From a virus, in IMG/VR virus record IMGVR_UViG_3300043640_000353, positions 2,645 to 66,644 of that record: a stretch of 64,000 nt of DNA; one strand, written 5' to 3'. The notes under the pieces are model-generated. The model had not been told where the DNA came from and did no database searches. It saw only the letters and a list, made by a program, of their open reading frames with translations. Shown here piece after piece: positions 13,103 through 63,754 of the stretch. Made by a program: the position numbers and the translations under genes. The first letter of the stretch is position 1. Every line of letters starts with the position of its first letter.

Positions 13103-13152
13103 GTTTTTATATTTTGGGTTTTTATATTTAAAATAGTCCCTTTAAACAAGTA

Positions 13153-13180
13153 AAGGGGCAAATAACTCTGCCCCTTTATA
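13153..13180 (-). terminator. Rho-independent terminator after the tail tube gene
   Basis: Hairpin TAAAGGGGCA-N8-TGCCCCTTTA. Confidence 0.7.
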
Positions 13181-19006: not shown

Positions 19007-19052
19007 GAGATTAGGTTTTTAGTTATAATAAAAAATAGTATGTATAAACCAA

Positions 19053-19079
19053 AAAGGTGAAGTTTTTAGCTTCACCTTT
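19053..19079 (-). terminator. Rho-independent terminator after the major capsid gene
   Basis: AAAGGTGAAG-N7-CTTCACCTTT, followed by TTTTTGGTTT on the minus strand. Confidence 0.8.
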
Positions 19080-25488: not shown

Positions 25489-25532
25489 AATTTAGTTACC
25501 TTTTCCCATTTGTGATTAAGGGATATAAAAAA

Positions 25533-25577
25533 GAGGGTTAATTATAATATACTTATAGTATATATTATAATACCCTC
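25533..25577. promoter_or_regulatory. AT-rich long inverted repeat upstream of terL
   Basis: GAGGGT-ta-ATTATAATATAC-...-GTATATATTATAAT-ACCCTC. Confidence 0.55.
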
Positions 25578-25601
25578 CTAATATTCTTATCCCAAAGGAT
25601 C

Positions 25602-27958: not shown

Positions 27959-28639
27959 ATGAACGTATCCTTAGTGAGCTTAACCCAATCGCTCATAAAA
28001 AATGAAAGGGGAGAACAATTAAATCCTGAAGAGTTAATTGTTTATATTGCCCGGGTATCCAATCCGGGCAATCAAATGAATACCGAAACATCCAATAAGC
28101 TTATTGCTTACCTTATGAAAAACAAACACTGGAGTCCCCTAGAAATGGTGGATTTTACAATGGAAATTGTTACTTCTCGGGCCATTGCTGCGCAAATCCT
28201 AAGGCATTGGTCATTTAGTTTCCAGGAATTCTCTCAACGGTATGCCAAAGTAACTGAAATGGAACCCATCCAATTAAGATTACAGGCACAATCAAACCGG
28301 CAATCTTCCCTAGAAGAATGTAATCCAATCCTTAAAAACAATTCATCCGCCATGGATGCCATTAATGATTATTTACAAGCTGGCCAATCTTTATACAATC
28401 AATTATTGGATGCCGATGTTGCTAAGGAATGTGCTCGTATGATTTTACCATTAACTATTGGAACCAAAATTTATATGAAGGGTAGTGTAAGGGAGTGGGT
28501 TCATTATCTAACAACCCGTTGTGATTCTCATACCCAATTAGAACACAGGGAAATTGCCTTAGCTATTCAACAACATTTTATAACCTTATTCCCAAATATT
28601 TCTTCGGGGTTAAATTGGATATCAGATGCTAACGGATAA
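27959..28639 (+). CDS. thyX: Flavin-dependent thymidylate synthase
   Basis: HWSPLEM; RHWSFSFQEFSQRY (RHRx7SxR variant); KECARMILP; HTQLEHREIA. Confidence 0.95.
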   Translation: MNVSLVSLTQSLIKNERGEQLNPEELIVYIARVSNPGNQMNTETSNKLIAYLMKNKHWSPLEMVDFTMEIVTSRAIAAQILRHWSFSFQEFSQRYAKVTEMEPIQLRLQAQSNRQSSLEECNPILKNNSSAMDAINDYLQAGQSLYNQLLDADVAKECARMILPLTIGTKIYMKGSVREWVHYLTTRCDSHTQLEHREIALAIQQHFITLFPNISSGLNWISDANG

Positions 28640-31067: not shown

Positions 31068-31514
31068 TTATTTTGTTAAAGATTCTTTTGCGATCTTTAA
31101 AACCCGTTCATAGTCTTGGATAGCTAGTTCATCAGTAACGTTTGTTAAACTTTTTAAAGAAAAATCATTTAAAATGTATTCTTTTTTGTAAAAAGAAATA
31201 AATTCTCTAGATAACTTTTTTATTTCTTCTTTATTTTTTTCAACAAAAAATTTGTTAGCAAAAAGTTTTAAATCCCTACGAATTTTGTTTCTTTTTTTCT
31301 TTTCGTCTTTTGCAGAAAGCTTATTTTTTTTATCAGCGATTGAATTTTCGAGTTGAAAACGATATAAGTAGTTTTTTTCTTTTACTGCGGTTGAACGATC
31401 TTTTTCAGCTGCTTTTTTTACTACTGCTGCTGCATTAGCACTATCAATAGCTTTTTCATTTTTTGAAACTTTTGCGCTTTGCGCTTTTTTTTCATTTTTT
31501 ACTTTGTTTTCCAT
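31068..31514 (-). CDS. Lys-rich early protein (148 aa)
   Basis: ATG lies at the end of 85-bp repeat copy 1; strongly AAA/TTT-biased codons. Confidence 0.75.
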   Translation of the reverse strand: MENKVKNEKKAQSAKVSKNEKAIDSANAAAVVKKAAEKDRSTAVKEKNYLYRFQLENSIADKKNKLSAKDEKKKRNKIRRDLKLFANKFFVEKNKEEIKKLSREFISFYKKEYILNDFSLKSLTNVTDELAIQDYERVLKIAKESLTK

Positions 31515-31596
31515 TTTTTTTAGAGTTTTAAAAAGTTTAACTTATTATTTATTTATATATATATAACGTAAAGATAAAAAAAAGATACAGAAAAAA
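31512..31596 (-). repeat. 85-bp perfect direct repeat (promoter+leader+ATG), copy 1
   Basis: Identical to 31774-31858; contains TATCTTTA (-7-like), a (TA)n run, and ends in ATG. Confidence 0.95.
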
Positions 31597-31776
31597 TTAA
31601 AATAAATTTATTATTTCGAATTTTGTTAACACTGCTGCTATTGCAGCAGATACAGCAATAAAAATAAATAAATAAAAATTAGTTTTGTTATTATTTTTTT
31701 TAAGCTGGTAAGTTTTTTTTTGCGTAAATGAAATTTCGAGAATTTCGTTTTTTACGGACTTGGGAAGTGTTTTCAT
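31597..31776 (-). CDS. Small membrane protein (59 aa) between the 85-bp repeats; absent from the ORF track
   Basis: MKTLPKSVKNEILEISFTQKKTYQLKKNNNKTNFYLFIFIAVSAAIAAVLTKFEIINLF; starts at the repeat ATG and stops at the edge of the other copy. Confidence 0.7.
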   Translation of the reverse strand: MKTLPKSVKNEILEISFTQKKTYQLKKNNNKTNFYLFIFIAVSAAIAAVLTKFEIINLF

Positions 31777-31858
31777 TTTTTTTAGAGTTTTAAAAAGTTT
31801 AACTTATTATTTATTTATATATATATAACGTAAAGATAAAAAAAAGATACAGAAAAAA
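31774..31858 (-). repeat. 85-bp perfect direct repeat, copy 2
   Basis: Identical to 31512-31596. Confidence 0.95.
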
Positions 31859-32171
31859 AAATTATTTTTATAAAAATGGTGGGTTGGGTACCCTGCCATA
31901 ATCTCCGGGCCATAAATAGGATTTGGCATAAAAGGTTTTAAGGAAGTTATGAACGGGCCTTTATTAATGGGGTAGGGGCCTAACTTGGCGGCTAAAGTAA
32001 TTTTTGGCCTAATTATTTTCCCACCCAAATCTCTCTTTGTAGCGCATATAGGCCATACCTTATTATCTGAACCAATAATATGGCTGTATATGGTATATAT
32101 CCTTATTATCCACACATGTTCTCGCCCGCATAAACTATAACGCGTTCATTCGCGTTGCTATTAGGATTAAT

Positions 32172-38123: not shown

Positions 38124-38163
38124 GGTAAAATTAATTGATAATTAACCTATATGAAAGGAGCTT
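38124..38163 (-). repeat. 40-bp exact promoter duplication (other copy 42533-42572)
   Basis: GGTAAAATTAATTGATAATTAACCTATATGAAAGGAGCTT in both; both downstream genes begin MKFM. Confidence 0.9.
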
Positions 38164-38182
38164 AGGAAATAAAATCACAAAA

Positions 38183-38650: not shown

Positions 38651-38735
38651 GGCTTGTTTTTTTAAGGTTATTATTAATATTTAATTATACTGCAAATTTA
38701 TAATGTATTAAACCCATACAAAAGGAGCTTAGGAA

Positions 38736-39017: not shown

Positions 39018-39090
39018 GGTTTTAAGATTTTATATTTATAGGATAAAATTAATATAAATATGTACCATACAAAAGGAGCTTAGGAAATAT

Positions 39091-42520: not shown

Positions 42521-42664
42521 ATTTTGATTTAAGGTAAAATTAATTGATAATTAACCTATATGAAAGGAGCTTGAGAAATAAAAATCACTTTAATTGGATT
42601 ATACCCGCCTGATGATTAATAAAGAATTCCATCCCATTTACTTCTATTATCTGTAATTGGTATC

Positions 42665-48269: not shown

Positions 48270-48662
48270 TTATTTTTTCTTTTTCTTGGCAGACTTAGCA
48301 GCCGGCTTTTTCTTTTTAGATTTTTTGTCATCCTCATCCTCATCCTCATCCTCATCCTCATCTTCATCCTCATCTTCATCCTCATCCTCATCCTCATCTT
48401 CATCCTCATCTTCATCCTCATCCTCATCTTCATCTTCATCTTCATCTTCATCTTCATCTTCATCTTCATCTTCATCTTCATCTTCATCTTCATCTTTTTT
48501 CTTACCTTTTGCCTCTTTGGAAGGAGTTGCTGAAATAGGGGCGATTAATGCAAAGATAAATGTACCATCTTCAAAGGTAATTTTTGAAAAGGGACTGTTC
48601 TCAACAGTCTCAATTGATTTGATTTTCTTACCCACTAATGGGTTTTTTGTTGTTTTTGCCAT
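48270..48662 (-). CDS. Protein with 56 consecutive Asp/Glu residues and a Lys-rich tail (130 aa)
   Basis: (GAT GAA/GAG)n tract; A-rich leader and strong terminator support this frame. Confidence 0.8.
   Translation of the reverse strand: MAKTTKNPLVGKKIKSIETVENSPFSKITFEDGTFIFALIAPISATPSKEAKGKKKDEDEDEDEDEDEDEDEDEDEDEDEDEDEDEDEDEDEDEDEDEDEDEDEDEDEDEDDKKSKKKKPAAKSAKKKKK
48327..48494. repeat. Hexanucleotide microsatellite (TCATCT/TCATCC)n, 168 bp
   Basis: Seen directly. Confidence 0.97.
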
Positions 48663-50593: not shown

Positions 50594-51538
50594 TTAGGTA
50601 TTCTTATTTGACATGAACCATTGGAAATCATGATCTATACCGGCATTATCCAATACATATTTCCTTGTGGGGCTTATATTTTGGATAATATCATAATTTA
50701 TGGCTTTTTTAGTTAATATCCTAAATTCTGGCCAAAATTTCTGGCCATCCCTACAATGCTTATAGTCCTTCTCAATATATAGGGTTATTATTTCCAAAAA
50801 TCTTTTGGCATCACCGGCATCTCTAAAAATATAAAGAATAAGATTATTCATTACCCTTAAATTTTTGGTATTATTGGGTACAGCTATAATTTGGGTTAAG
50901 CTTAGGTCATTAACCGTTATTAATGGTAGGAAAAAACAATTCTTGGCCATACCCTTCCTCTTTACTTCATAGATCTGTTTTATCTTTAAAATTGATAACG
51001 GGTGTAAAGATGTAAATAAGTTTACTAGTTTCCTTAGTTTATGCTTATTTCGGCGTTTAAAAGCAGATGGTTCTTGAATTGATAAGGGTAGTATCCTAAA
51101 ATTATTCCACCTATCAAAATCCATTATTAAATGGTATAGATTGTTATCTTGAACAAATTTAGAGCCTTTTAAACTTTGAACTTCCCTTAATATTTCTATC
51201 TCACGGGATTTAATCTTCCCATAGATATCTGATCCCATTTCTAATGTTGCTCTTTTAATTGGCAACCTGTTTTCCAGGGTAAATCTAATATATTGTTTAA
51301 AGTCCTTATCTAAGATTGATCCGACTGGGATTAGGTAATCGTATATTTCAAAATAATCGGTAAATAGTTTAAGGAATTTTTCGGCTCTTTGCCTTATTTC
51401 CAAATACTTATAATGGGCTTTACCCATTATTTCTCCGGCTTCCCAGGTAGATTTACCATGGGATAAAGATAATGATAAAGCCATCTTCTCCTCATCGGTT
51501 AGAATCTTCCAAGCTTTTTGTTGGGCTTTAGTCATCAT
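50594..51538 (-). CDS. Putative transcription factor with N-terminal sigma70 region-4-like HTH (314 aa)
   Basis: AWKILTDEEKMALSLSLSHGKSTWEAGEIMGK...IRQRAEKFLK matches the r4 pattern L...E+......G.S..E.A..MG.......RA...L. Confidence 0.65.
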   Translation of the reverse strand: MMTKAQQKAWKILTDEEKMALSLSLSHGKSTWEAGEIMGKAHYKYLEIRQRAEKFLKLFTDYFEIYDYLIPVGSILDKDFKQYIRFTLENRLPIKRATLEMGSDIYGKIKSREIEILREVQSLKGSKFVQDNNLYHLIMDFDRWNNFRILPLSIQEPSAFKRRNKHKLRKLVNLFTSLHPLSILKIKQIYEVKRKGMAKNCFFLPLITVNDLSLTQIIAVPNNTKNLRVMNNLILYIFRDAGDAKRFLEIITLYIEKDYKHCRDGQKFWPEFRILTKKAINYDIIQNISPTRKYVLDNAGIDHDFQWFMSNKNT

Positions 51539-52253
51539 ACCTTAGGTAATTTTGGGCAGAGTTTTTACCCTTTATTTTTATATCCTCTAAACTCTTTTCC
51601 TTAAAATCTTTTTCATCAAATGTTCCCATATAGATGGTATAAAATACATTGTCAAATGATACGGCAATCTTTTTTAGAATACCCTCCAATTGTAATTCAA
51701 CCTCTACCTCTTGTTTTCTGGAATTTACTTTTATAACATCGGCTGTCATACCCTCAAAAGGATAACCTTTTAGAATAATCATCATCCCAGGTTGTAGGTT
51801 ATCAATATCATCCTTGGAATAAAGGTTATATTCCTTTTGGGCATCAACCAATCTCCTTATTTCTCCCGATGTTGCCAATGCTACTGGGATCATATCCTTC
51901 CTTATTAATGGCTCATTACCTTCTATTAATGAAGGCCTTGAGGTTATAATACTCTTGGTATCTTTTACCCAGGCATAAATAGCTGGAATATCTTTTTTCA
52001 TTTCCTGAAGGAATTCAGATTCCAATTTCCTATTTGGGAGTTGAAAAAATCCATAGTTAAATAACAAAGGTACCTCTTCAAATATATCTTTTCCTTTAAA
52101 TTGTTTTTTAAGGATTTTAACTGTTGGTATATAGGCCTTTACTTCCCGGTATTTATCAGGAAATTTAGATAAGTCCTTTTCTACCCTATCCATGAAATCC
52201 CTGTTTATATAGGCTATTGCCCAACTACAGTTTGGTTTTAATTTTAAGCCCAT
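51528..52253 (-). CDS. nusG: NusG-family transcription elongation/antitermination factor (specialised paralogue)
   Basis: NGN: WAIAY...AYIPT...VPLLFNYGFF; KOW: PGMMIILKGYPFEGMTADVIKVNSRKQEVEVEL. Confidence 0.85.
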   Translation of the reverse strand: MGLKLKPNCSWAIAYINRDFMDRVEKDLSKFPDKYREVKAYIPTVKILKKQFKGKDIFEEVPLLFNYGFFQLPNRKLESEFLQEMKKDIPAIYAWVKDTKSIITSRPSLIEGNEPLIRKDMIPVALATSGEIRRLVDAQKEYNLYSKDDIDNLQPGMMIILKGYPFEGMTADVIKVNSRKQEVEVELQLEGILKKIAVSFDNVFYTIYMGTFDEKDFKEKSLEDIKIKGKNSAQNYLRYDD

Positions 52254-52774
52254 AGTTGTTTAATTATTTTGGAGGTTATTTTTTTAATCTGTTGATAATC
52301 CGTTTTAAATAAAAGGTTTGAATCCATGAATATGAGTTTGCCGAGTTTAAAATAGGGGTGTTTAGCTATGGGCATTAAACTTTTGATTTTTTTGAACTCG
52401 GAATACCTTATCACTATAATAAAAAATTCCTTTTTCATCCCATCATACCGCATCATTAGAAGAGGTAATTTTTTAGCTCTAATGGAATCTTCTACGCATT
52501 GTGGCCAAAATTCATGGGTTATTTTAGATTTAACCTGGGGCATTAGTAGATGTTCAAAATTGATATCAGAATAATTCTTTACCTCTATGGAGAAATCAAA
52601 TCTATGGAGAGCATCTGTACAAACTATATCCCCGGATATATTTTCTGCTTTTTTCCATCTAAGACCCCCAGATGCCGGTACCCCAGCGAATTCAAGGTTT
52701 GTCCAAGATTTTAAAGCAATACGTGCAATCTTTTCTCCACGTTTACCTTTCTTCCTTGAGTTTATTTTGGCCAT
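52244..52774 (-). CDS. Holliday junction resolvase-like PD-(D/E)xK nuclease (T5 D14/Hjc-like)
   Basis: NSRKKGKRGE...PASGG...SGDI...SIEVKNY. Confidence 0.8.
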   Translation of the reverse strand: MAKINSRKKGKRGEKIARIALKSWTNLEFAGVPASGGLRWKKAENISGDIVCTDALHRFDFSIEVKNYSDINFEHLLMPQVKSKITHEFWPQCVEDSIRAKKLPLLMMRYDGMKKEFFIIVIRYSEFKKIKSLMPIAKHPYFKLGKLIFMDSNLLFKTDYQQIKKITSKIIKQLWA

Positions 52775-52816
52775 TGATATTGATTTAATAAATATAGTAC
52801 CAATGGGTCAATACTG

Positions 52817-54658: not shown

Positions 54659-55653
54659 GATGTTTTCAATGTTTTTATTAAGGCTATTCTTTTATCTTTA
54701 TCCTTTATACCCTTTTTCTTTAGGTAATTCTTGGCTATTTTTGTTTTGCTTTTGGTATTATCAAATCCCTTATCTACTATACCCATTTCCTTTTCCTTTT
54801 TGGGTTTTGGTATGTAAATATGAAAATTATCGGGGATTTCTTTTTTGGAATTATAATATTTGAATTCAGGTAAATTCAGGTTTACAAATTTGGGTTTATC
54901 TTTTTCATATATTTCCCAATAACCCATATCTATTCCCCTATCCCCAGCATTTTGTTGGTGGGTGGCACCTAACATATAAATGTTATTCCCCAATTGTTGT
55001 GGTTTGTGAATATGGCCACTTAATACCAGGTTAAAATCATTAAAATAGGTATTTATATCCTTAGGGATTTTCTTTACCTCCCCTATTTCAAATCCATAGC
55101 CATTTCTTGCCCCGGGTAAATCTGTATGTATTAGTAAAATTTTAAAGGCATCTTTATTATCCCGTATATCGGCAATAAATTTTTCCATATATACTTCGAA
55201 ACTTAGATTATGTGTTAGGTATGGGATGCCATAAACAAGAATTCTCTTGCCCATTGTTGGAATAATTTCTTTTTTCACTCCATCAATGCAATGGAAATGA
55301 TTAAATATATTTGAGAAGGATTTTATATAACTAGGTGATTTATGGTAATAGGTATTTTGCCTTGACATATCATGATCACCAGATATACCTATAAAATCCA
55401 CACCCAAATTTTCAAAGAATTCTTTGAAATATCCTATAAATTCCATAAGAATTTGATTATTTAGGCTTTTCCAATTATGAAATAAATCACCTGGGAATAA
55501 TACAGGTACCTTTAATTCTTTTGCCCTTAAGCCTATTATCTCTAGGGGTTTTAAAGAATTAAAAAGCCTATCCCCTTTATAGGAATAGGCATTCTCCCAT
55601 TGATGAATATGGGCATCTGCAAATGCCAAAGCTATTGGTTTATTTTTGTTCAT
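54655..55653 (-). CDS. sbcD: SbcD/Mre11/gp47-like nuclease
   Basis: ADAH; PGDLFH; SGDHD; SGHIH metallophosphoesterase motifs. Confidence 0.9.
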   Translation of the reverse strand: MNKNKPIALAFADAHIHQWENAYSYKGDRLFNSLKPLEIIGLRAKELKVPVLFPGDLFHNWKSLNNQILMEFIGYFKEFFENLGVDFIGISGDHDMSRQNTYYHKSPSYIKSFSNIFNHFHCIDGVKKEIIPTMGKRILVYGIPYLTHNLSFEVYMEKFIADIRDNKDAFKILLIHTDLPGARNGYGFEIGEVKKIPKDINTYFNDFNLVLSGHIHKPQQLGNNIYMLGATHQQNAGDRGIDMGYWEIYEKDKPKFVNLNLPEFKYYNSKKEIPDNFHIYIPKPKKEKEMGIVDKGFDNTKSKTKIAKNYLKKKGIKDKDKRIALIKTLKTS

Positions 55654-56242
55654 ATTCTTTGGAGATTGTTAATTTTACTAATTGCTTCCTTGTTTCCCAA
55701 TCCCATTTTTGTAACGTGTTACCTCTTAATTTCTTAAGCTCATTTACCATAAGGGTACATGAAAGATCAAATGCTTGGTTTGATAACATTTGATAGTACC
55801 TATTGTTTATTCTTTTACCATCATCTTCAAGAGGTATTTCTTTTGTAAAAGGTAATACAAATAAATAATTAAATTTACTTAAAGCCTTTTCACAATAGTG
55901 AATATACCTTGTGGTATCATTTTCAGGAAGTGAATGGGTATTTTGTAAAAGGAAATATGATAAGTTATCAACTGGTGACCTATCGGTTACAAAATTAACA
56001 TGACCCTTCAAGGCGTTTTCCCTAAATTCCAAAACCTCATGTTGAAATTGTAAACCCCAAACTGGGTCATGGGAAGCCCTTTCTAATAACATTAAATGAG
56101 ATTTTATCTTGTGTTTATCCCACAAAGGTTTTGTTGATGTAGTTATAAATGGTATTTTATACTCCTCGGAGATCCATTTCGCTAATGTGCTTTTACCGGT
56201 ACCACTTGGTCCAGCTAGGGCAATTCTTAAACTTAAATCCAT
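55640..56242 (-). CDS. P-loop nucleotide kinase-like protein (AAA_28/dNMP kinase-like)
   Basis: IALAGPSGTGKSTLA; FVTDRSPVDNLSY; PLEDDGKR. Confidence 0.8.
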   Translation of the reverse strand: MDLSLRIALAGPSGTGKSTLAKWISEEYKIPFITTSTKPLWDKHKIKSHLMLLERASHDPVWGLQFQHEVLEFRENALKGHVNFVTDRSPVDNLSYFLLQNTHSLPENDTTRYIHYCEKALSKFNYLFVLPFTKEIPLEDDGKRINNRYYQMLSNQAFDLSCTLMVNELKKLRGNTLQKWDWETRKQLVKLTISKEYEQK

Positions 56243-62530: not shown

Positions 62531-62945
62531 ATTTTTCTATTTTGACCCCGTTAAATTCCAAATACAATAATCCTTCCTTATCCCGGAATTCTTCTTTATA
62601 TACCACCCTTAATATACCAGATTGTACTATCAATTCAGCACATTTTAAACAGGGAGAATGGGTAGTATAAAGTATTGAACCTTCTAAAGGTATTCCCTTC
62701 TTAGCGCTAAATGAGATGGCATTTGCTTCTGCATGTATGGATTTGTTACAGGGTTTTAATTTATCACAATTACATATATTACCTGATCTTTCTATTTTGG
62801 TAGGACCATTATAGCCAGATACTATAATCCTACCCTCATTGGTTATTGTACACCCAACTTGTAATCTACCGCATGGGGACCTTTTACTAAATAATTCAGC
62901 AACTTGGATGTATAGATCATCCCTGGATATCCGATTTTCACTCAT
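62517..62945 (-). CDS. dCMP deaminase
   Basis: SGYNG; HAEANAI; SPCLKC. Confidence 0.93.
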   Translation of the reverse strand: MSENRISRDDLYIQVAELFSKRSPCGRLQVGCTITNEGRIIVSGYNGPTKIERSGNICNCDKLKPCNKSIHAEANAISFSAKKGIPLEGSILYTTHSPCLKCAELIVQSGILRVVYKEEFRDKEGLLYLEFNGVKIEKYGKL

Positions 62946-63754
62946 TTTTTTTTATGACGTTTTAACATTTCGAATTCATTCTCAAAAATATGTAATGAGG
63001 TAATATGCATGGTAAATATTCCGGGTTTAACATTTTCCCAATATTTGGAACCCATAGCCAATTCATTTATTAACCATATAACCTTGCGTACCGCAAGATA
63101 TATATCATCCCTAAAATGCCTTAGATAATCACATGATCTAATATGGTAAACTATATGGAGATAGTTATCTCTACGAATAAAATGATAACCTATCGTGCAA
63201 GGTATTCTTCCCCCATGAACTGCACCTGTATCTTCGGGAAAAAATATAGGCAGATATGCCTGCCTTGTAAAAGGTTCTTTTCCTAAAAGCCTTATTAAAT
63301 CATTTAAATCGCCATATTCATATCTTATACCCTTTAATGGCTCAAGTTCATGTCCCTCAGCATAAACACCTTCTATACCCGCATATTTTGGCCAAATACG
63401 TTCCATATATGAATGGGTAAATTTCTCATCTACATTTCTCATTTCCTTATCCATTTTATAGAAAGGCCAAAGTTTATAGGTTTTACCCGGGTTTACTGGA
63501 AATCCATTTACCCTCTCTTCAAAATGCCTATCTGCCCATGGCAGATTTGGTTTTACTTGAGCCATTAATTCCGCCAGATTATTGGGCATGAAAACCTTAA
63601 AAGAAGTATTAAGTGTTTCCCTCATATCATGTTCTAAAGGTATGCCTTGCCATTTTTCTGTTCTTATTACATAGGATTCTTCAATAAGTTTTTCCCTTAC
63701 AAATTCTATGGCATCATTGAAATTGTTAAAATATTCGAGTTTCATATATAACAT
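62942..63754 (-). CDS. Thymidylate-synthase-fold enzyme with dCMP-type active site (candidate pyrimidine-modifying enzyme)
   Basis: TRQA; catalytic IPCT; RSCDYLRHFRDD (Asp at the E. coli ThyA Asn177 position, His at Gly173); SLHIF. Confidence 0.85.
   Translation of the reverse strand: MLYMKLEYFNNFNDAIEFVREKLIEESYVIRTEKWQGIPLEHDMRETLNTSFKVFMPNNLAELMAQVKPNLPWADRHFEERVNGFPVNPGKTYKLWPFYKMDKEMRNVDEKFTHSYMERIWPKYAGIEGVYAEGHELEPLKGIRYEYGDLNDLIRLLGKEPFTRQAYLPIFFPEDTGAVHGGRIPCTIGYHFIRRDNYLHIVYHIRSCDYLRHFRDDIYLAVRKVIWLINELAMGSKYWENVKPGIFTMHITSLHIFENEFEMLKRHKKK

What the first reader, a model, noticed from the sequence alone, without database searches (positions are those of the whole stretch)
50594..52253. 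Phage-encoded NusG paralogue coupled to a sigma-region-4-like protein: a possible dedicated late transcription/antitermination system
Seen: a full NGN+KOW NusG protein, with an insertion before the KOW, overlaps a 314-aa gene whose N-terminus looks like a sigma70 r4 HTH. No phage RNA polymerase is visible in the window. The ~27-kb co-oriented virion operon contains strong intrinsic terminators (19053-19079, 13153-13180) upstream of essential genes. Established: Bacteroidota use specialised NusG paralogues (UpxY) for operon-specific antitermination, as do RfaH and LoaP systems. Inference: the phage reprograms host RNAP with its own NusG to read through the structural operon, with the sigma-like partner switching promoter specificity.
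Basis: partly seen in the sequence, partly recalled or inferred. Interest (0 to 1): 0.72.

Follow-up and report, generated by a model that had tools for sequence, protein, structure and literature searches.

The report
Phage NusG paralogue with sigma-4 partner

Summary
ORF 51528..52253 (-) is a real NGN+KOW NusG-superfamily protein: every top PDB and Swiss-Prot fold hit is NusG, RfaH or Spt5. Its best HMM is UpxY, far below every curated cut-off, so it is neither housekeeping NusG nor a member of a named paralogue family. ORF 50594..51538 (-) overlaps it by 11 nt. Its first ~60 residues are a sigma region-4 fold (Z about 10), and one distant relative passes Pfam's Sigma70_r4 thresholds. The remaining ~250 residues match nothing known. 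The pair is adjacent in 51 of 51 testable IMG/VR loci, overlapping or at most 8 nt apart.

No RNA polymerase gene was found, and terminator hairpins after the capsid and tail-tube genes are positionally conserved. However, each is followed by a conserved TACTATT box. That box marks the replication and virion blocks, while host-type TAnnTTTG boxes mark the small-gene block. The pair's own three-gene unit sits behind a TACTATT box. A separate 219-aa candidate sigma factor outside the window is the better candidate for the promoter switch.

Most likely reading: an RNAP-modifying elongation or antitermination module (confidence about 0.5). Earlier scan notes report similar pairs on other DNA.

The parts
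51528..52253 (-). NusG-superfamily paralogue, 241 aa. NGN is about residues 8-141, with a variable insertion at about 105-125. KOW is 143-203. A C-terminal tail at 205-241 is predicted disordered.
50594..51538 (-). Partner protein, 314 aa (313 aa from the second ATG). Residues 1-60 form a sigma-70 region-4 fold. Residues 66-313 form a confident model with no known match and contain an invariant unstructured segment at about 140-165.
52244..52774 (-). PDDEXK_15 / RusA-like endonuclease gene. It overlaps the NusG-like start by 10 nt and is the first gene of the conserved three-gene unit.
   Evidence: upstream of the NusG-like gene in 54 of 55 loci
52794..52799 (-). TACTAT box 19 nt before the endonuclease ATG. 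It is a candidate phage-specific promoter element for the three-gene unit.
   Evidence: (box present in 36 of 43 non-redundant syntenic upstream regions, host-type box in 0)
19053..19079 (-). Intrinsic-terminator-like hairpin (10-bp stem plus T tract) directly after the major capsid gene.
19035..19040 (-). TACTAT box 12 nt after the terminator stem (directly after its T tract) and 28 nt before the next ATG.
13151..13178 (-). Intrinsic-terminator-like hairpin (12-bp stem) directly after the tail-tube gene.
13132..13137 (-). ACTATT box (a variant of the TACTATT box) after the tube terminator, 29 nt before the next ATG.
25531..25579 (-). Long hairpin (about 20 bp) followed by a T run, between the lysin gene and the large-terminase gene. 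A TACTAT lies in its loop at 25555-25560.

Best explanation
The two genes encode a phage-specific, two-part factor that acts on the host RNA polymerase.

Shown:
- The 241-aa protein has the NGN and KOW domains of NusG/RfaH/UpxY.
- The 314-aa protein starts with a sigma region-4 domain.
- The two genes are always adjacent, overlapping or at most 8 nt apart, in a lineage of collinear 74-85-kb myovirus-type phages in which no RNA polymerase gene was found.
- They are the last genes of a conserved endonuclease / NusG-like / partner unit at the end of the replication block, behind a phage-specific TACTATT box.

Inferred:
- The NGN domain binds the beta-prime clamp helices of the elongating host RNAP, as all characterised NusG paralogues do. 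This would make RNAP more processive and resistant to pausing, Rho and hairpin terminators.
- The partner supplies what RfaH, UpxY or LoaP get from their ops or leader signals. It either targets the complex through its helix-turn-helix, or docks on the beta-flap (the natural site of sigma region 4) to stabilise the complex and block hairpin-dependent termination.
- The factor is made only after the roughly 19-kb replication block has been transcribed. It would then allow full-length transcription of the long virion gene trains, including through the conserved hairpins before the terminase gene and after the capsid and tube genes.
- The promoter-specificity change itself (host TAnnTTTG boxes to TACTATT boxes) is more likely the job of a separate 219-aa candidate sigma factor expressed from a host-type promoter.
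For: Fold and HMM identity of the NusG-like protein.

Sigma-4 identity of the partner's N-terminus:
- (Z 8.7-10.3).
- the AFDB relative is named as sigma70 r4_2-containing.
- family member P0357 passes the Pfam gathering scores (27.1 vs 25.7, and 25.1 vs 24.1).

Obligate pairing:
- Adjacent in 51 of 51 testable loci.
- Junction from -47 to +8 nt in 50 loci.
- Same order in the only two GenBank phage records with the pair.
- Partner family of 195 representatives at 50% identity; the full-length ones are all about 300 aa with the same whole-length match, and no fused form was seen.

No RNAP gene found.

Genome logic in five collinear genomes:
- Host-type box in 43 of 131 upstream regions of the small-gene block, against 1 of 63 in the replication and virion blocks (p = 8e-8).
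- TACTAT/ACTATT box in 26 of 63 against 18 of 131 (p = 4e-5).

Conserved terminator hairpins after the capsid gene (4 of 5 directly, the fifth one ORF later) and after the tube gene (5 of 5), with unrelated sequences.

Established knowledge: RfaH, UpxY and LoaP are operon-specific processive antiterminators (PMC7819879, PMC11685472, PMC12691694).
Against:
- Each conserved terminator is followed at once by a TACTATT-type box, about 34-35 nt upstream of the next ATG in several genomes. Downstream genes may simply re-initiate, so antitermination is not required by the architecture.
- No ops-like or other conserved recruitment motif was found apart from the TACTATT box, and no conserved element lies upstream of that box.
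- The NusG-like protein is below the curated cut-off of every named paralogue family.
- About 250 residues of the partner have no assignable function.
- The unit is coupled to a DNA endonuclease gene, which could point to a DNA-transaction role.
Confidence: 0.5

Rival explanations
1. Late-promoter specificity factor. The partner (sigma-4 domain plus an unrecognised promoter-melting domain), with the NusG-like protein as co-activator on the clamp helices, directs host core RNAP to TACTATT promoters. This would resemble T4 gp55/gp33 acting at late promoters that lack a -35 element.
For: - The TACTATT box is a strand-specific, conserved element 17-46 nt before start codons, with no -35-like partner motif. 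It is enriched in the replication and virion blocks.
- The partner's helix-turn-helix residues (H41, K43, E46, R50) are invariant across 56 sequences.
- The pair lies at the distal end of a long early/middle block, a plausible timer.
Against: - No sigma region 2 was detected in the partner, its family or the genome by HMM.
- The pair's own unit sits behind the same box in 36 of 43 loci. It cannot be the first activator of that class unless read-through primes it.
- A separate sigma-like protein with a host-type promoter is conserved in all five genomes.
- No NusG paralogue is known to act in initiation (own knowledge).
Confidence: 0.15
2. Host shut-off or early-to-middle switch by competition. 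The sigma-4 domain of the partner occupies the beta-flap and the NGN occupies the clamp helices. Together they exclude the host primary sigma (whose region 4 reads the -33 element) and host NusG from RNAP. This would silence host-type promoters, including the phage's own early ones.
For: - Sigma region 2 and the NusG NGN share the clamp-helix site, and sigma region 4 binds the beta-flap (established knowledge).
- phiEco32 gp79 displaces sigma region 4 while helping the phage sigma (PMC12276001).
- Host-type boxes are confined to one block.
Against: - Blocking both sigma docking sites would also hinder the phage's own candidate sigma.
- There is no evidence that either protein binds free core RNAP.
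- All characterised NusG paralogues act on elongation complexes.
Confidence: 0.15
3. UpxY/UpxZ-like pair. The downstream protein is a regulator or antagonist that binds the NusG paralogue and limits or times its activity, rather than a co-factor on RNAP.
For: - The gene order matches Bacteroides capsule loci: NusG paralogue first, partner second (PMC11685472).
- UpxY is the best-scoring HMM for 49 of 55 family members.
Against: - The partner matches no Pfam family at E<=1, so it has no UpxZ signature.
- It is about twice the length I recall for UpxZ (own knowledge) and carries a sigma-4 DNA/RNAP-binding domain.
- Only one NusG paralogue was found in the genome, so there is no non-cognate paralogue for an UpxZ-type antagonist to inhibit.
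Confidence: 0.07
4. The role is not primarily transcriptional. The endonuclease / NusG-like / partner unit would act on DNA, in recombination-dependent replication, transcription-replication conflict resolution or packaging initiation. The helix-turn-helix would bind a DNA site and the KOW/NGN would act as an adaptor.
For: - All three genes are coupled, and the endonuclease is upstream in 54 of 55 loci.
- The unit lies inside the recombination module (SbcCD, UvsX-like, exonuclease).
Against: - No NGN+KOW protein is known to work away from an RNA polymerase (own knowledge).
- Gene clustering in phages often reflects timing rather than function.
Confidence: 0.08

Closest known systems
UpxY / UpxZ of Bacteroides capsule operons (specialised NusG paralogue followed by a small partner gene)
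   Same: Probable host phylum. NGN+KOW architecture. UpxY is the best-matching HMM, hitting both halves. The paralogue gene is immediately followed by a dedicated partner gene. The presumed task is to help transcription of long gene trains.
   Different: It scores 36.9 bits against a cut-off of 100. It is phage-encoded rather than at the head of its target operon. The partner is a 314-aa sigma-4-domain protein with no UpxZ signature. No leader ops-type site was identified.
RfaH and LoaP; also plasmid-borne RfaH-like factors such as PrfaH (PDB 9ik0)
   Same: The NGN superposes on the RfaH NGN (Z 9.5, 21% identity). It is carried by a mobile element. Processive antitermination is the expected role.
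   Different: It works with an obligate protein partner. No E. coli-type ops core is present on the coding strand. The KOW is modelled as a beta-barrel and there is no evidence of fold switching. HMM scores are far below the family cut-offs.
Lambda Q-type antiterminators
   Same: A phage protein that could use DNA binding plus contacts at the sigma-4 / beta-flap region to load onto RNAP and carry it through late-operon terminators. This is an analogy of mechanism only.
   Different: No sequence or fold relationship was found. Q acts alone with host NusA, whereas this system brings its own NusG-family subunit.
T4 gp55/gp33 and phiEco32 gp36/gp79 (phage sigma plus an RNAP-binding co-factor at the flap / sigma-4 site)
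   Same: The phage-specific promoter-like box lacks a -35 element. A candidate phage sigma is encoded separately. An accessory protein could occupy the sigma-4 site (PMC2988020, PMC12276001).
   Different: Those systems contain no NusG-family protein. Homology was not detected, and the roles here are inferred only.

Membership tests
NusG/Spt5 superfamily | N-terminal NGN domain fold | tested here: met
   Residues 8-141 align to all 101 residues of the RfaH NGN (Z 9.5, rmsd 2.6) and to NusG NGNs at Z 8.8-9.5. The UpxY HMM covers positions 1-86.
NusG/Spt5 superfamily | C-terminal KOW domain | tested here: met
   The family profile hits Spt5/NusG KOWs in the PDB at E = 3.8e-4. Residues 143-203 align to the E. 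coli NusG CTD (Z 6.7, rmsd 2.2).
NusG/Spt5 superfamily | Binding to the RNAP clamp helices | not testable with these tools
   Needs biochemistry or a validated complex model with Bacteroidota RNAP.
Housekeeping NusG (TIGR00922) | Score at or above the curated cut-off of 135.7 bits | tested here: not met
   15.6 bits. Only 14 of 55 family members hit the model at E<=1e-3.
UpxY (NF033644) | Score at or above the curated cut-off of 100 bits | tested here: not met
   36.9 bits. It is the best family for 49 of 55 members, but none of the scores listed (query 36.9 bits; best member E = 4.7e-11) comes near the cut-off.
UpxY (NF033644) | First gene of a polysaccharide operon, followed by UpxZ | tested here: not met
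   It lies in a phage replication block behind an endonuclease gene. The downstream protein matches no Pfam family at E<=1.
RfaH (NF006534 / TIGR01955) | Curated HMM cut-off of 124 bits, and an ops element on the non-template strand of the target leader | tested here: not met
   16.5 bits. The E. coli ops core GGCGGTAG occurs once, on the strand opposite to the genes. A different, phage-specific loading site is not excluded.
LoaP (NF033641) | Curated HMM cut-off of 125 bits | tested here: not met
   27.9 bits, although the match spans residues 22-201.
Sigma-70 family (for the partner) | Region 4 helix-turn-helix domain | tested here: met
   Fold: the top 20 chains are all sigma r4 (Z 8.7-10.3). 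Sequence: family member P0357 passes the Pfam gathering scores for Sigma70_r4_2 and Sigma70_r4. The window's own protein does not reach them.
Sigma-70 family (for the partner) | Region 2 (core binding and -10 recognition) | tested here: inconclusive
   There is no Sigma70_r2 HMM hit in the protein, in 56 relatives or in the six-frame genome. Residues 66-313 were barely tested by fold search because the N-terminal domain filled the lists. The domain order, region 4 first, is also atypical.

The most novel reading that the evidence does not exclude
The NusG-like protein and the sigma-4-domain protein form a heterodimeric 'split pseudo-sigma / loader'. The NGN would take the clamp-helix site normally used by sigma region 2 and read the TACTATT box on the non-template strand. 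The partner would take the beta-flap site of sigma region 4. One complex would then both select phage transcription units and stay on RNAP as an antiterminator. That would be a NusG paralogue acting from initiation or promoter-proximal pausing onward, with a dedicated protein loader.
Probability: 0.12. Interest if true: 0.85.

Novelty: new variant of a known kind. Interest (0 to 1): 0.6.

Why it matters
Specialised NusG paralogues (RfaH, UpxY, LoaP) are the model for operon-specific control of transcription elongation. All characterised ones are recruited by a nucleic-acid signal and work without a dedicated protein subunit. This is a phage lineage with hundreds of metagenomic members: 441 NusG-like and 727 partner sequences at 90% clustering, and 195 partner representatives at 50%. 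In it, a NusG paralogue is invariably coupled to a sigma-region-4 protein.

If the two act together on RNAP, that would be a new way to target or stabilise a NusG-type factor. It would also be a new phage strategy for taking over the unusual Bacteroidota transcription machinery, in phages that include human-gut relatives. The two-box promoter architecture and the candidate phage sigma make the temporal programme of this uncultured group directly testable in vitro with recombinant Bacteroides RNAP.

Tried and rejected
- Complex prediction of the NusG-like protein with the partner gave 'no answer' (score 0.01, controls not run). It counts neither for nor against binding.
- Internal-repeat test of the partner (residues 1-66 vs 67-146) by hhalign, prompted by earlier scan notes of tandem region-4 HTHs: not significant.
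- hhalign of the 219-aa sigma-like family against the partner: not significant.
- Profile of the 219-aa family against PDB sequences, and Pfam scans of its 42 members: no sigma hit. Its sigma assignment rests on Atlas features and structure only.
- Atlas feature search of partner residues 66-313: nothing usable.
- AFDB, Atlas and BFVD fold searches: only uncharacterised viral relatives cover the whole protein.
- Motifs TTAATTTTAC and TAACTTAAAAAC are not enriched over shuffles in the window.
- The full Bacteroidota promoter pattern is not enriched in the single window. It only became clear across five genomes.
- The genome-contig scan gave four contigs, three from MAGs and one a 607-bp piece, with inconsistent taxonomic labels, no prophage and no host information.
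- Six literature searches found no paper on a phage NusG paralogue with a sigma-4 partner.
- A phylogenetic placement among NusG, RfaH, UpxY and LoaP was not attempted. Reference sequences were not retrievable, and divergence (12-21% identity) would make the tree unreliable.
Full report
**What is in the sequence**

Two overlapping minus-strand ORFs occupy the reported interval: 51528..52253 (241 aa) and 50594..51538 (314 aa). The junction reads TATGATGACTAA, so the partner's first ATG lies 11 nt inside the upstream gene. The 241-aa gene in turn overlaps, by 10 nt, the end of a PDDEXK_15 / RusA-like endonuclease gene at 52244..52774.

The window is bases 2645-66644 of a 73,789-bp linear IMG/VR virus record, rated 87% complete. 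The record encodes:
- a myovirus-type virion module: large terminase, portal, protease, major capsid, sheath, tube, tape measure and baseplate;
- a replication/recombination module: family-A DNA polymerase, UvsX-like recombinase, exonuclease, SbcCD, SSB, helicase and primase.

No RNA polymerase gene was found. Almost all of the largest ORFs are assigned to other functions (two of 485 and 406 aa remain unassigned and are too short for a single-subunit RNAP). HMM searches for single-subunit and multisubunit RNAP were negative in this genome and in four complete relatives. The single-subunit control was silent, so that result is weaker.

**The 241-aa protein is a diverged NusG-family paralogue**

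Pfam finds nothing. NCBIfam gives sub-threshold matches in this order: UpxY (3.3e-9, 36.9 bits, cut-off 100), LoaP (27.9 bits, nearly full length), Spt5, RfaH (NGN part) and NusG (15.6 bits, cut-off 135.7). The UpxY model matches both halves of the protein.

Of 55 family members, 49 hit UpxY, 23 LoaP, 14 NusG, 13 RfaH and 13 Spt5.

An AlphaFold model built from 55 homologues has a mean pLDDT of 70.6, with confident cores. It gives 35 PDB hits at E<=1e-3, all of them NusG, RfaH or Spt5. Residues 8-141 cover the whole RfaH NGN (Z 9.5, rmsd 2.6, 21% identity). Residues 143-203 cover the E. coli NusG KOW domain (Z 6.7, rmsd 2.2). All top 30 Swiss-Prot fold hits are NusG.

Two features set it apart from canonical NusG. 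One is a length-variable, low-confidence insertion inside the NGN at about residues 105-125. The other is a conserved 38-residue tail after the KOW.

It therefore belongs to the NusG superfamily but is not housekeeping NusG. It also falls below the cut-off of every named paralogue family.

**The 314-aa partner**

No Pfam, PHROG or NCBIfam family matches it, and the family profile finds nothing in PDB sequences. The model is confident (pLDDT 90.2).

Residues 1-60 superpose on sigma region 4. All top 20 chains in an exhaustive structural search are sigma r4 (Z 8.7-10.3), clearly above LuxR-type HTHs at Z 6-8.

There is sequence-level support too. A distant family member (P0357) passes Pfam's gathering thresholds for Sigma70_r4_2 and Sigma70_r4, and three others give weak hits. 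The one AFDB relative is named as a sigma70 r4_2-containing protein.

Residues 66-313 include an invariant, unstructured FDRWNNFRILP...PSAFKRRNK segment. They match only uncharacterised viral proteins. No sigma region 2 is detectable in the protein, in its relatives or in the six-frame genome.

The family is closed and uniform. It has 195 representatives at 50% identity; the full-length ones are all about 300 aa and align over their whole length (the remainder are shorter partial sequences), with no fusions.

**The pairing is obligate**

The two families have 441 and 727 metagenomic members at 90% clustering. Many lie on contigs of the same lengths, 60-85 kb.

In 55 IMG/VR loci found with the NusG-like profile, the partner follows immediately in 51. 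The other four contigs end inside or just after the NusG-like gene. In 50 loci the junction ranges from a 47-nt overlap to an 8-nt gap, most often +1, -4, -8 or -14.

The endonuclease gene is upstream in 54 of 55 loci. The only two GenBank phage records with the pair, both uncultured, have the same order.

**Genome logic in five collinear genomes**

I fetched four complete relatives (capsid 44-57% identical) and compared them with this genome. All share one strand and one order:
1. a replication block ending in endonuclease / NusG-like / partner;
2. about 25 kb of small genes;
3. the virion block.

In 210 windows 10-65 nt upstream of start codons, two strand-specific motifs stand out:
- the Bacteroidota -7 promoter box TAnnTTTG (TATTTG in 48 windows against 7.5 expected, z = 15.8; consensus from PMC6847099);
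- TACTAT/ACTATT (29-30 windows against 7.7 expected, z = 8-9).

These two boxes partition the genome:

| Box | Small-gene block | Replication + virion blocks | Fisher p |
|---|---|---|---|
| Host-type TAnnTTTG | 43 of 131 | 1 of 63 | 8e-8 |
| TACTAT/ACTATT | 18 of 131 | 26 of 63 | 4e-5 |

Only one region carries both boxes. The TACTATT box lies 17-46 nt before the ATG and has no conserved upstream element.

The box precedes the endonuclease / NusG-like / partner unit in 36 of 43 non-redundant syntenic loci. None of those has a host-type box. This phylogenetic footprint makes the box a real cis element.

The host is probably a Bacteroidota member. That rests on the promoter boxes and on UpxY being the nearest HMM. 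No prophage or cultured relative was found.

**The terminators**

They sit directly after the major capsid gene and the tail-tube gene, which encode the most abundant virion proteins.

Hairpins followed by T tracts occur at the same two positions in the relatives, with unrelated sequences. After the capsid gene this holds in 4 of 5 genomes directly, and in the fifth one ORF later. After the tube gene it holds in 5 of 5. A third, 20-bp hairpin with a T run lies between the lysin and terminase genes.

However, the terminators are followed within a few bases by a TACTATT-type box, with the box start about 34-35 nt upstream of the next ATG in several genomes. That looks like a terminator-promoter cassette. 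The downstream essential genes therefore need not depend on read-through.

**A better candidate for the promoter switch**

Outside the window lies a 219-aa gene on the opposite strand (genome 1007-1666; L057:1007-1663:+), between the tail block and the head of the replication block. It is conserved at that place in all five genomes. Each copy has a TATATTTG host-type box upstream, and the divergent replication block starts behind TACTATT boxes.

The ESM Atlas places it next to viral clusters that are 100% Sigma70_r2 (feature score 0.96; structural TM 0.48/0.54). HMM searches do not confirm this, so it remains a lead. It fits a simple programme:
1. Host RNAP reads the early box.
2. The phage sigma is made.
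3. TACTATT units, covering replication and virion genes, switch on.
4. The NusG-like / partner pair is made last in the replication block.

**Mechanism**

Given what NusG paralogues are known to do (PMC7819879, PMC11685472, PMC12691694), the most likely role of the pair is to modify elongating host RNAP for processive, termination-resistant transcription of the long phage gene trains. The partner would act either as the targeting subunit, through its HTH, or as a beta-flap-binding stabiliser.

I put this at about 0.5. The rivals are:
- the pair as the TACTATT promoter factor (0.15);
- competitive host shut-off (0.15);
- an UpxZ-like regulator (0.07);
- a DNA-transaction role linked to the endonuclease (0.08).

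None could be tested. The complex prediction gave no answer, and RNA data were unavailable.

**Novelty**

Six literature searches found no description of a phage NusG paralogue with a sigma-4 partner. The 2021 NusG review does not mention phage-encoded paralogues.

Annotation-level knowledge does exist. PHROG 6386, 'transcription antiterminator', matches the KOW weakly, and JGI names some homologues NusG.

Earlier notes of this scan report similar pairs in other genomes and the early promoter cassettes of this same window. I class the finding as a new variant of a known kind.

Noticed in passing
L057:1007-1663:+ (genome bases 1007-1666, outside the window): A 219-aa gene on the opposite strand, between the tail block and the head of the replication block. 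It is conserved there in all five genomes, each time behind a TATATTTG host-type box. Atlas features (0.96) and structure (TM 0.48/0.54) place it next to viral Sigma70_r2 clusters, but Pfam and PDB profile searches find nothing. It is a candidate highly diverged phage sigma factor.
   Followed up: partly
whole window and relatives G002-G005; window examples 52794-52799, 19035-19040, 13132-13137, 25555-25560 (all minus strand): Two mutually exclusive upstream box classes. The host-type TAnnTTTG box is confined to the roughly 25-kb small-gene block. The TACTATT box is in the replication and virion blocks, 17-46 nt before start codons, with no -35-like element. It is probably a phage-specific middle/late promoter class.
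   Followed up: yes
window 38154-38168, 38721-38735, 39072-39086, 42563-42577 (minus strand): A repeated early-promoter cassette, TTCCTAAGCTCCTTT...(about 17 nt)...TTAATTTTACC, lies in front of small genes (11 matches within 3 mismatches against 3.8 expected). The -7 box variant ends in A instead of G.
   Followed up: partly
window 31515-31600 and 31777-31860 (minus strand): The roughly 85 nt upstream of the genes starting at 31514 and 31776 are identical, so a promoter/leader cassette is duplicated in tandem.
   Followed up: no
window 48270-48662 (minus strand): A 130-aa protein with a run of about 60 alternating Asp/Glu residues and a lysine-rich tail. It could be a DNA mimic or a histone-like binder. 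The repeat also creates long shadow ORFs on both strands.
   Followed up: no
window 27959-28639 (+) and 62942-63754 (-): Two thymidylate-synthase-type genes: a strong match to thymidylate-synthase PHROG 85 (by eye a ThyX-type motif) in the short opposite-strand module, and a second thymidylate-synthase PHROG hit in the replication block. A thymidylate-kinase-like gene lies at 55640-56242. This may reflect nucleotide modification or salvage.
   Followed up: no
L059-L062 (genome contigs): Contigs of 77-83 kb belonging to this phage group sit in MAGs labelled uncultured archaeon and Spirochaetaceae, a 13.9-kb one in a Collinsella MAG, and a 607-bp piece in a Streptomyces assembly. These are likely mis-binned phage or contamination and give no host evidence.
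   Followed up: no
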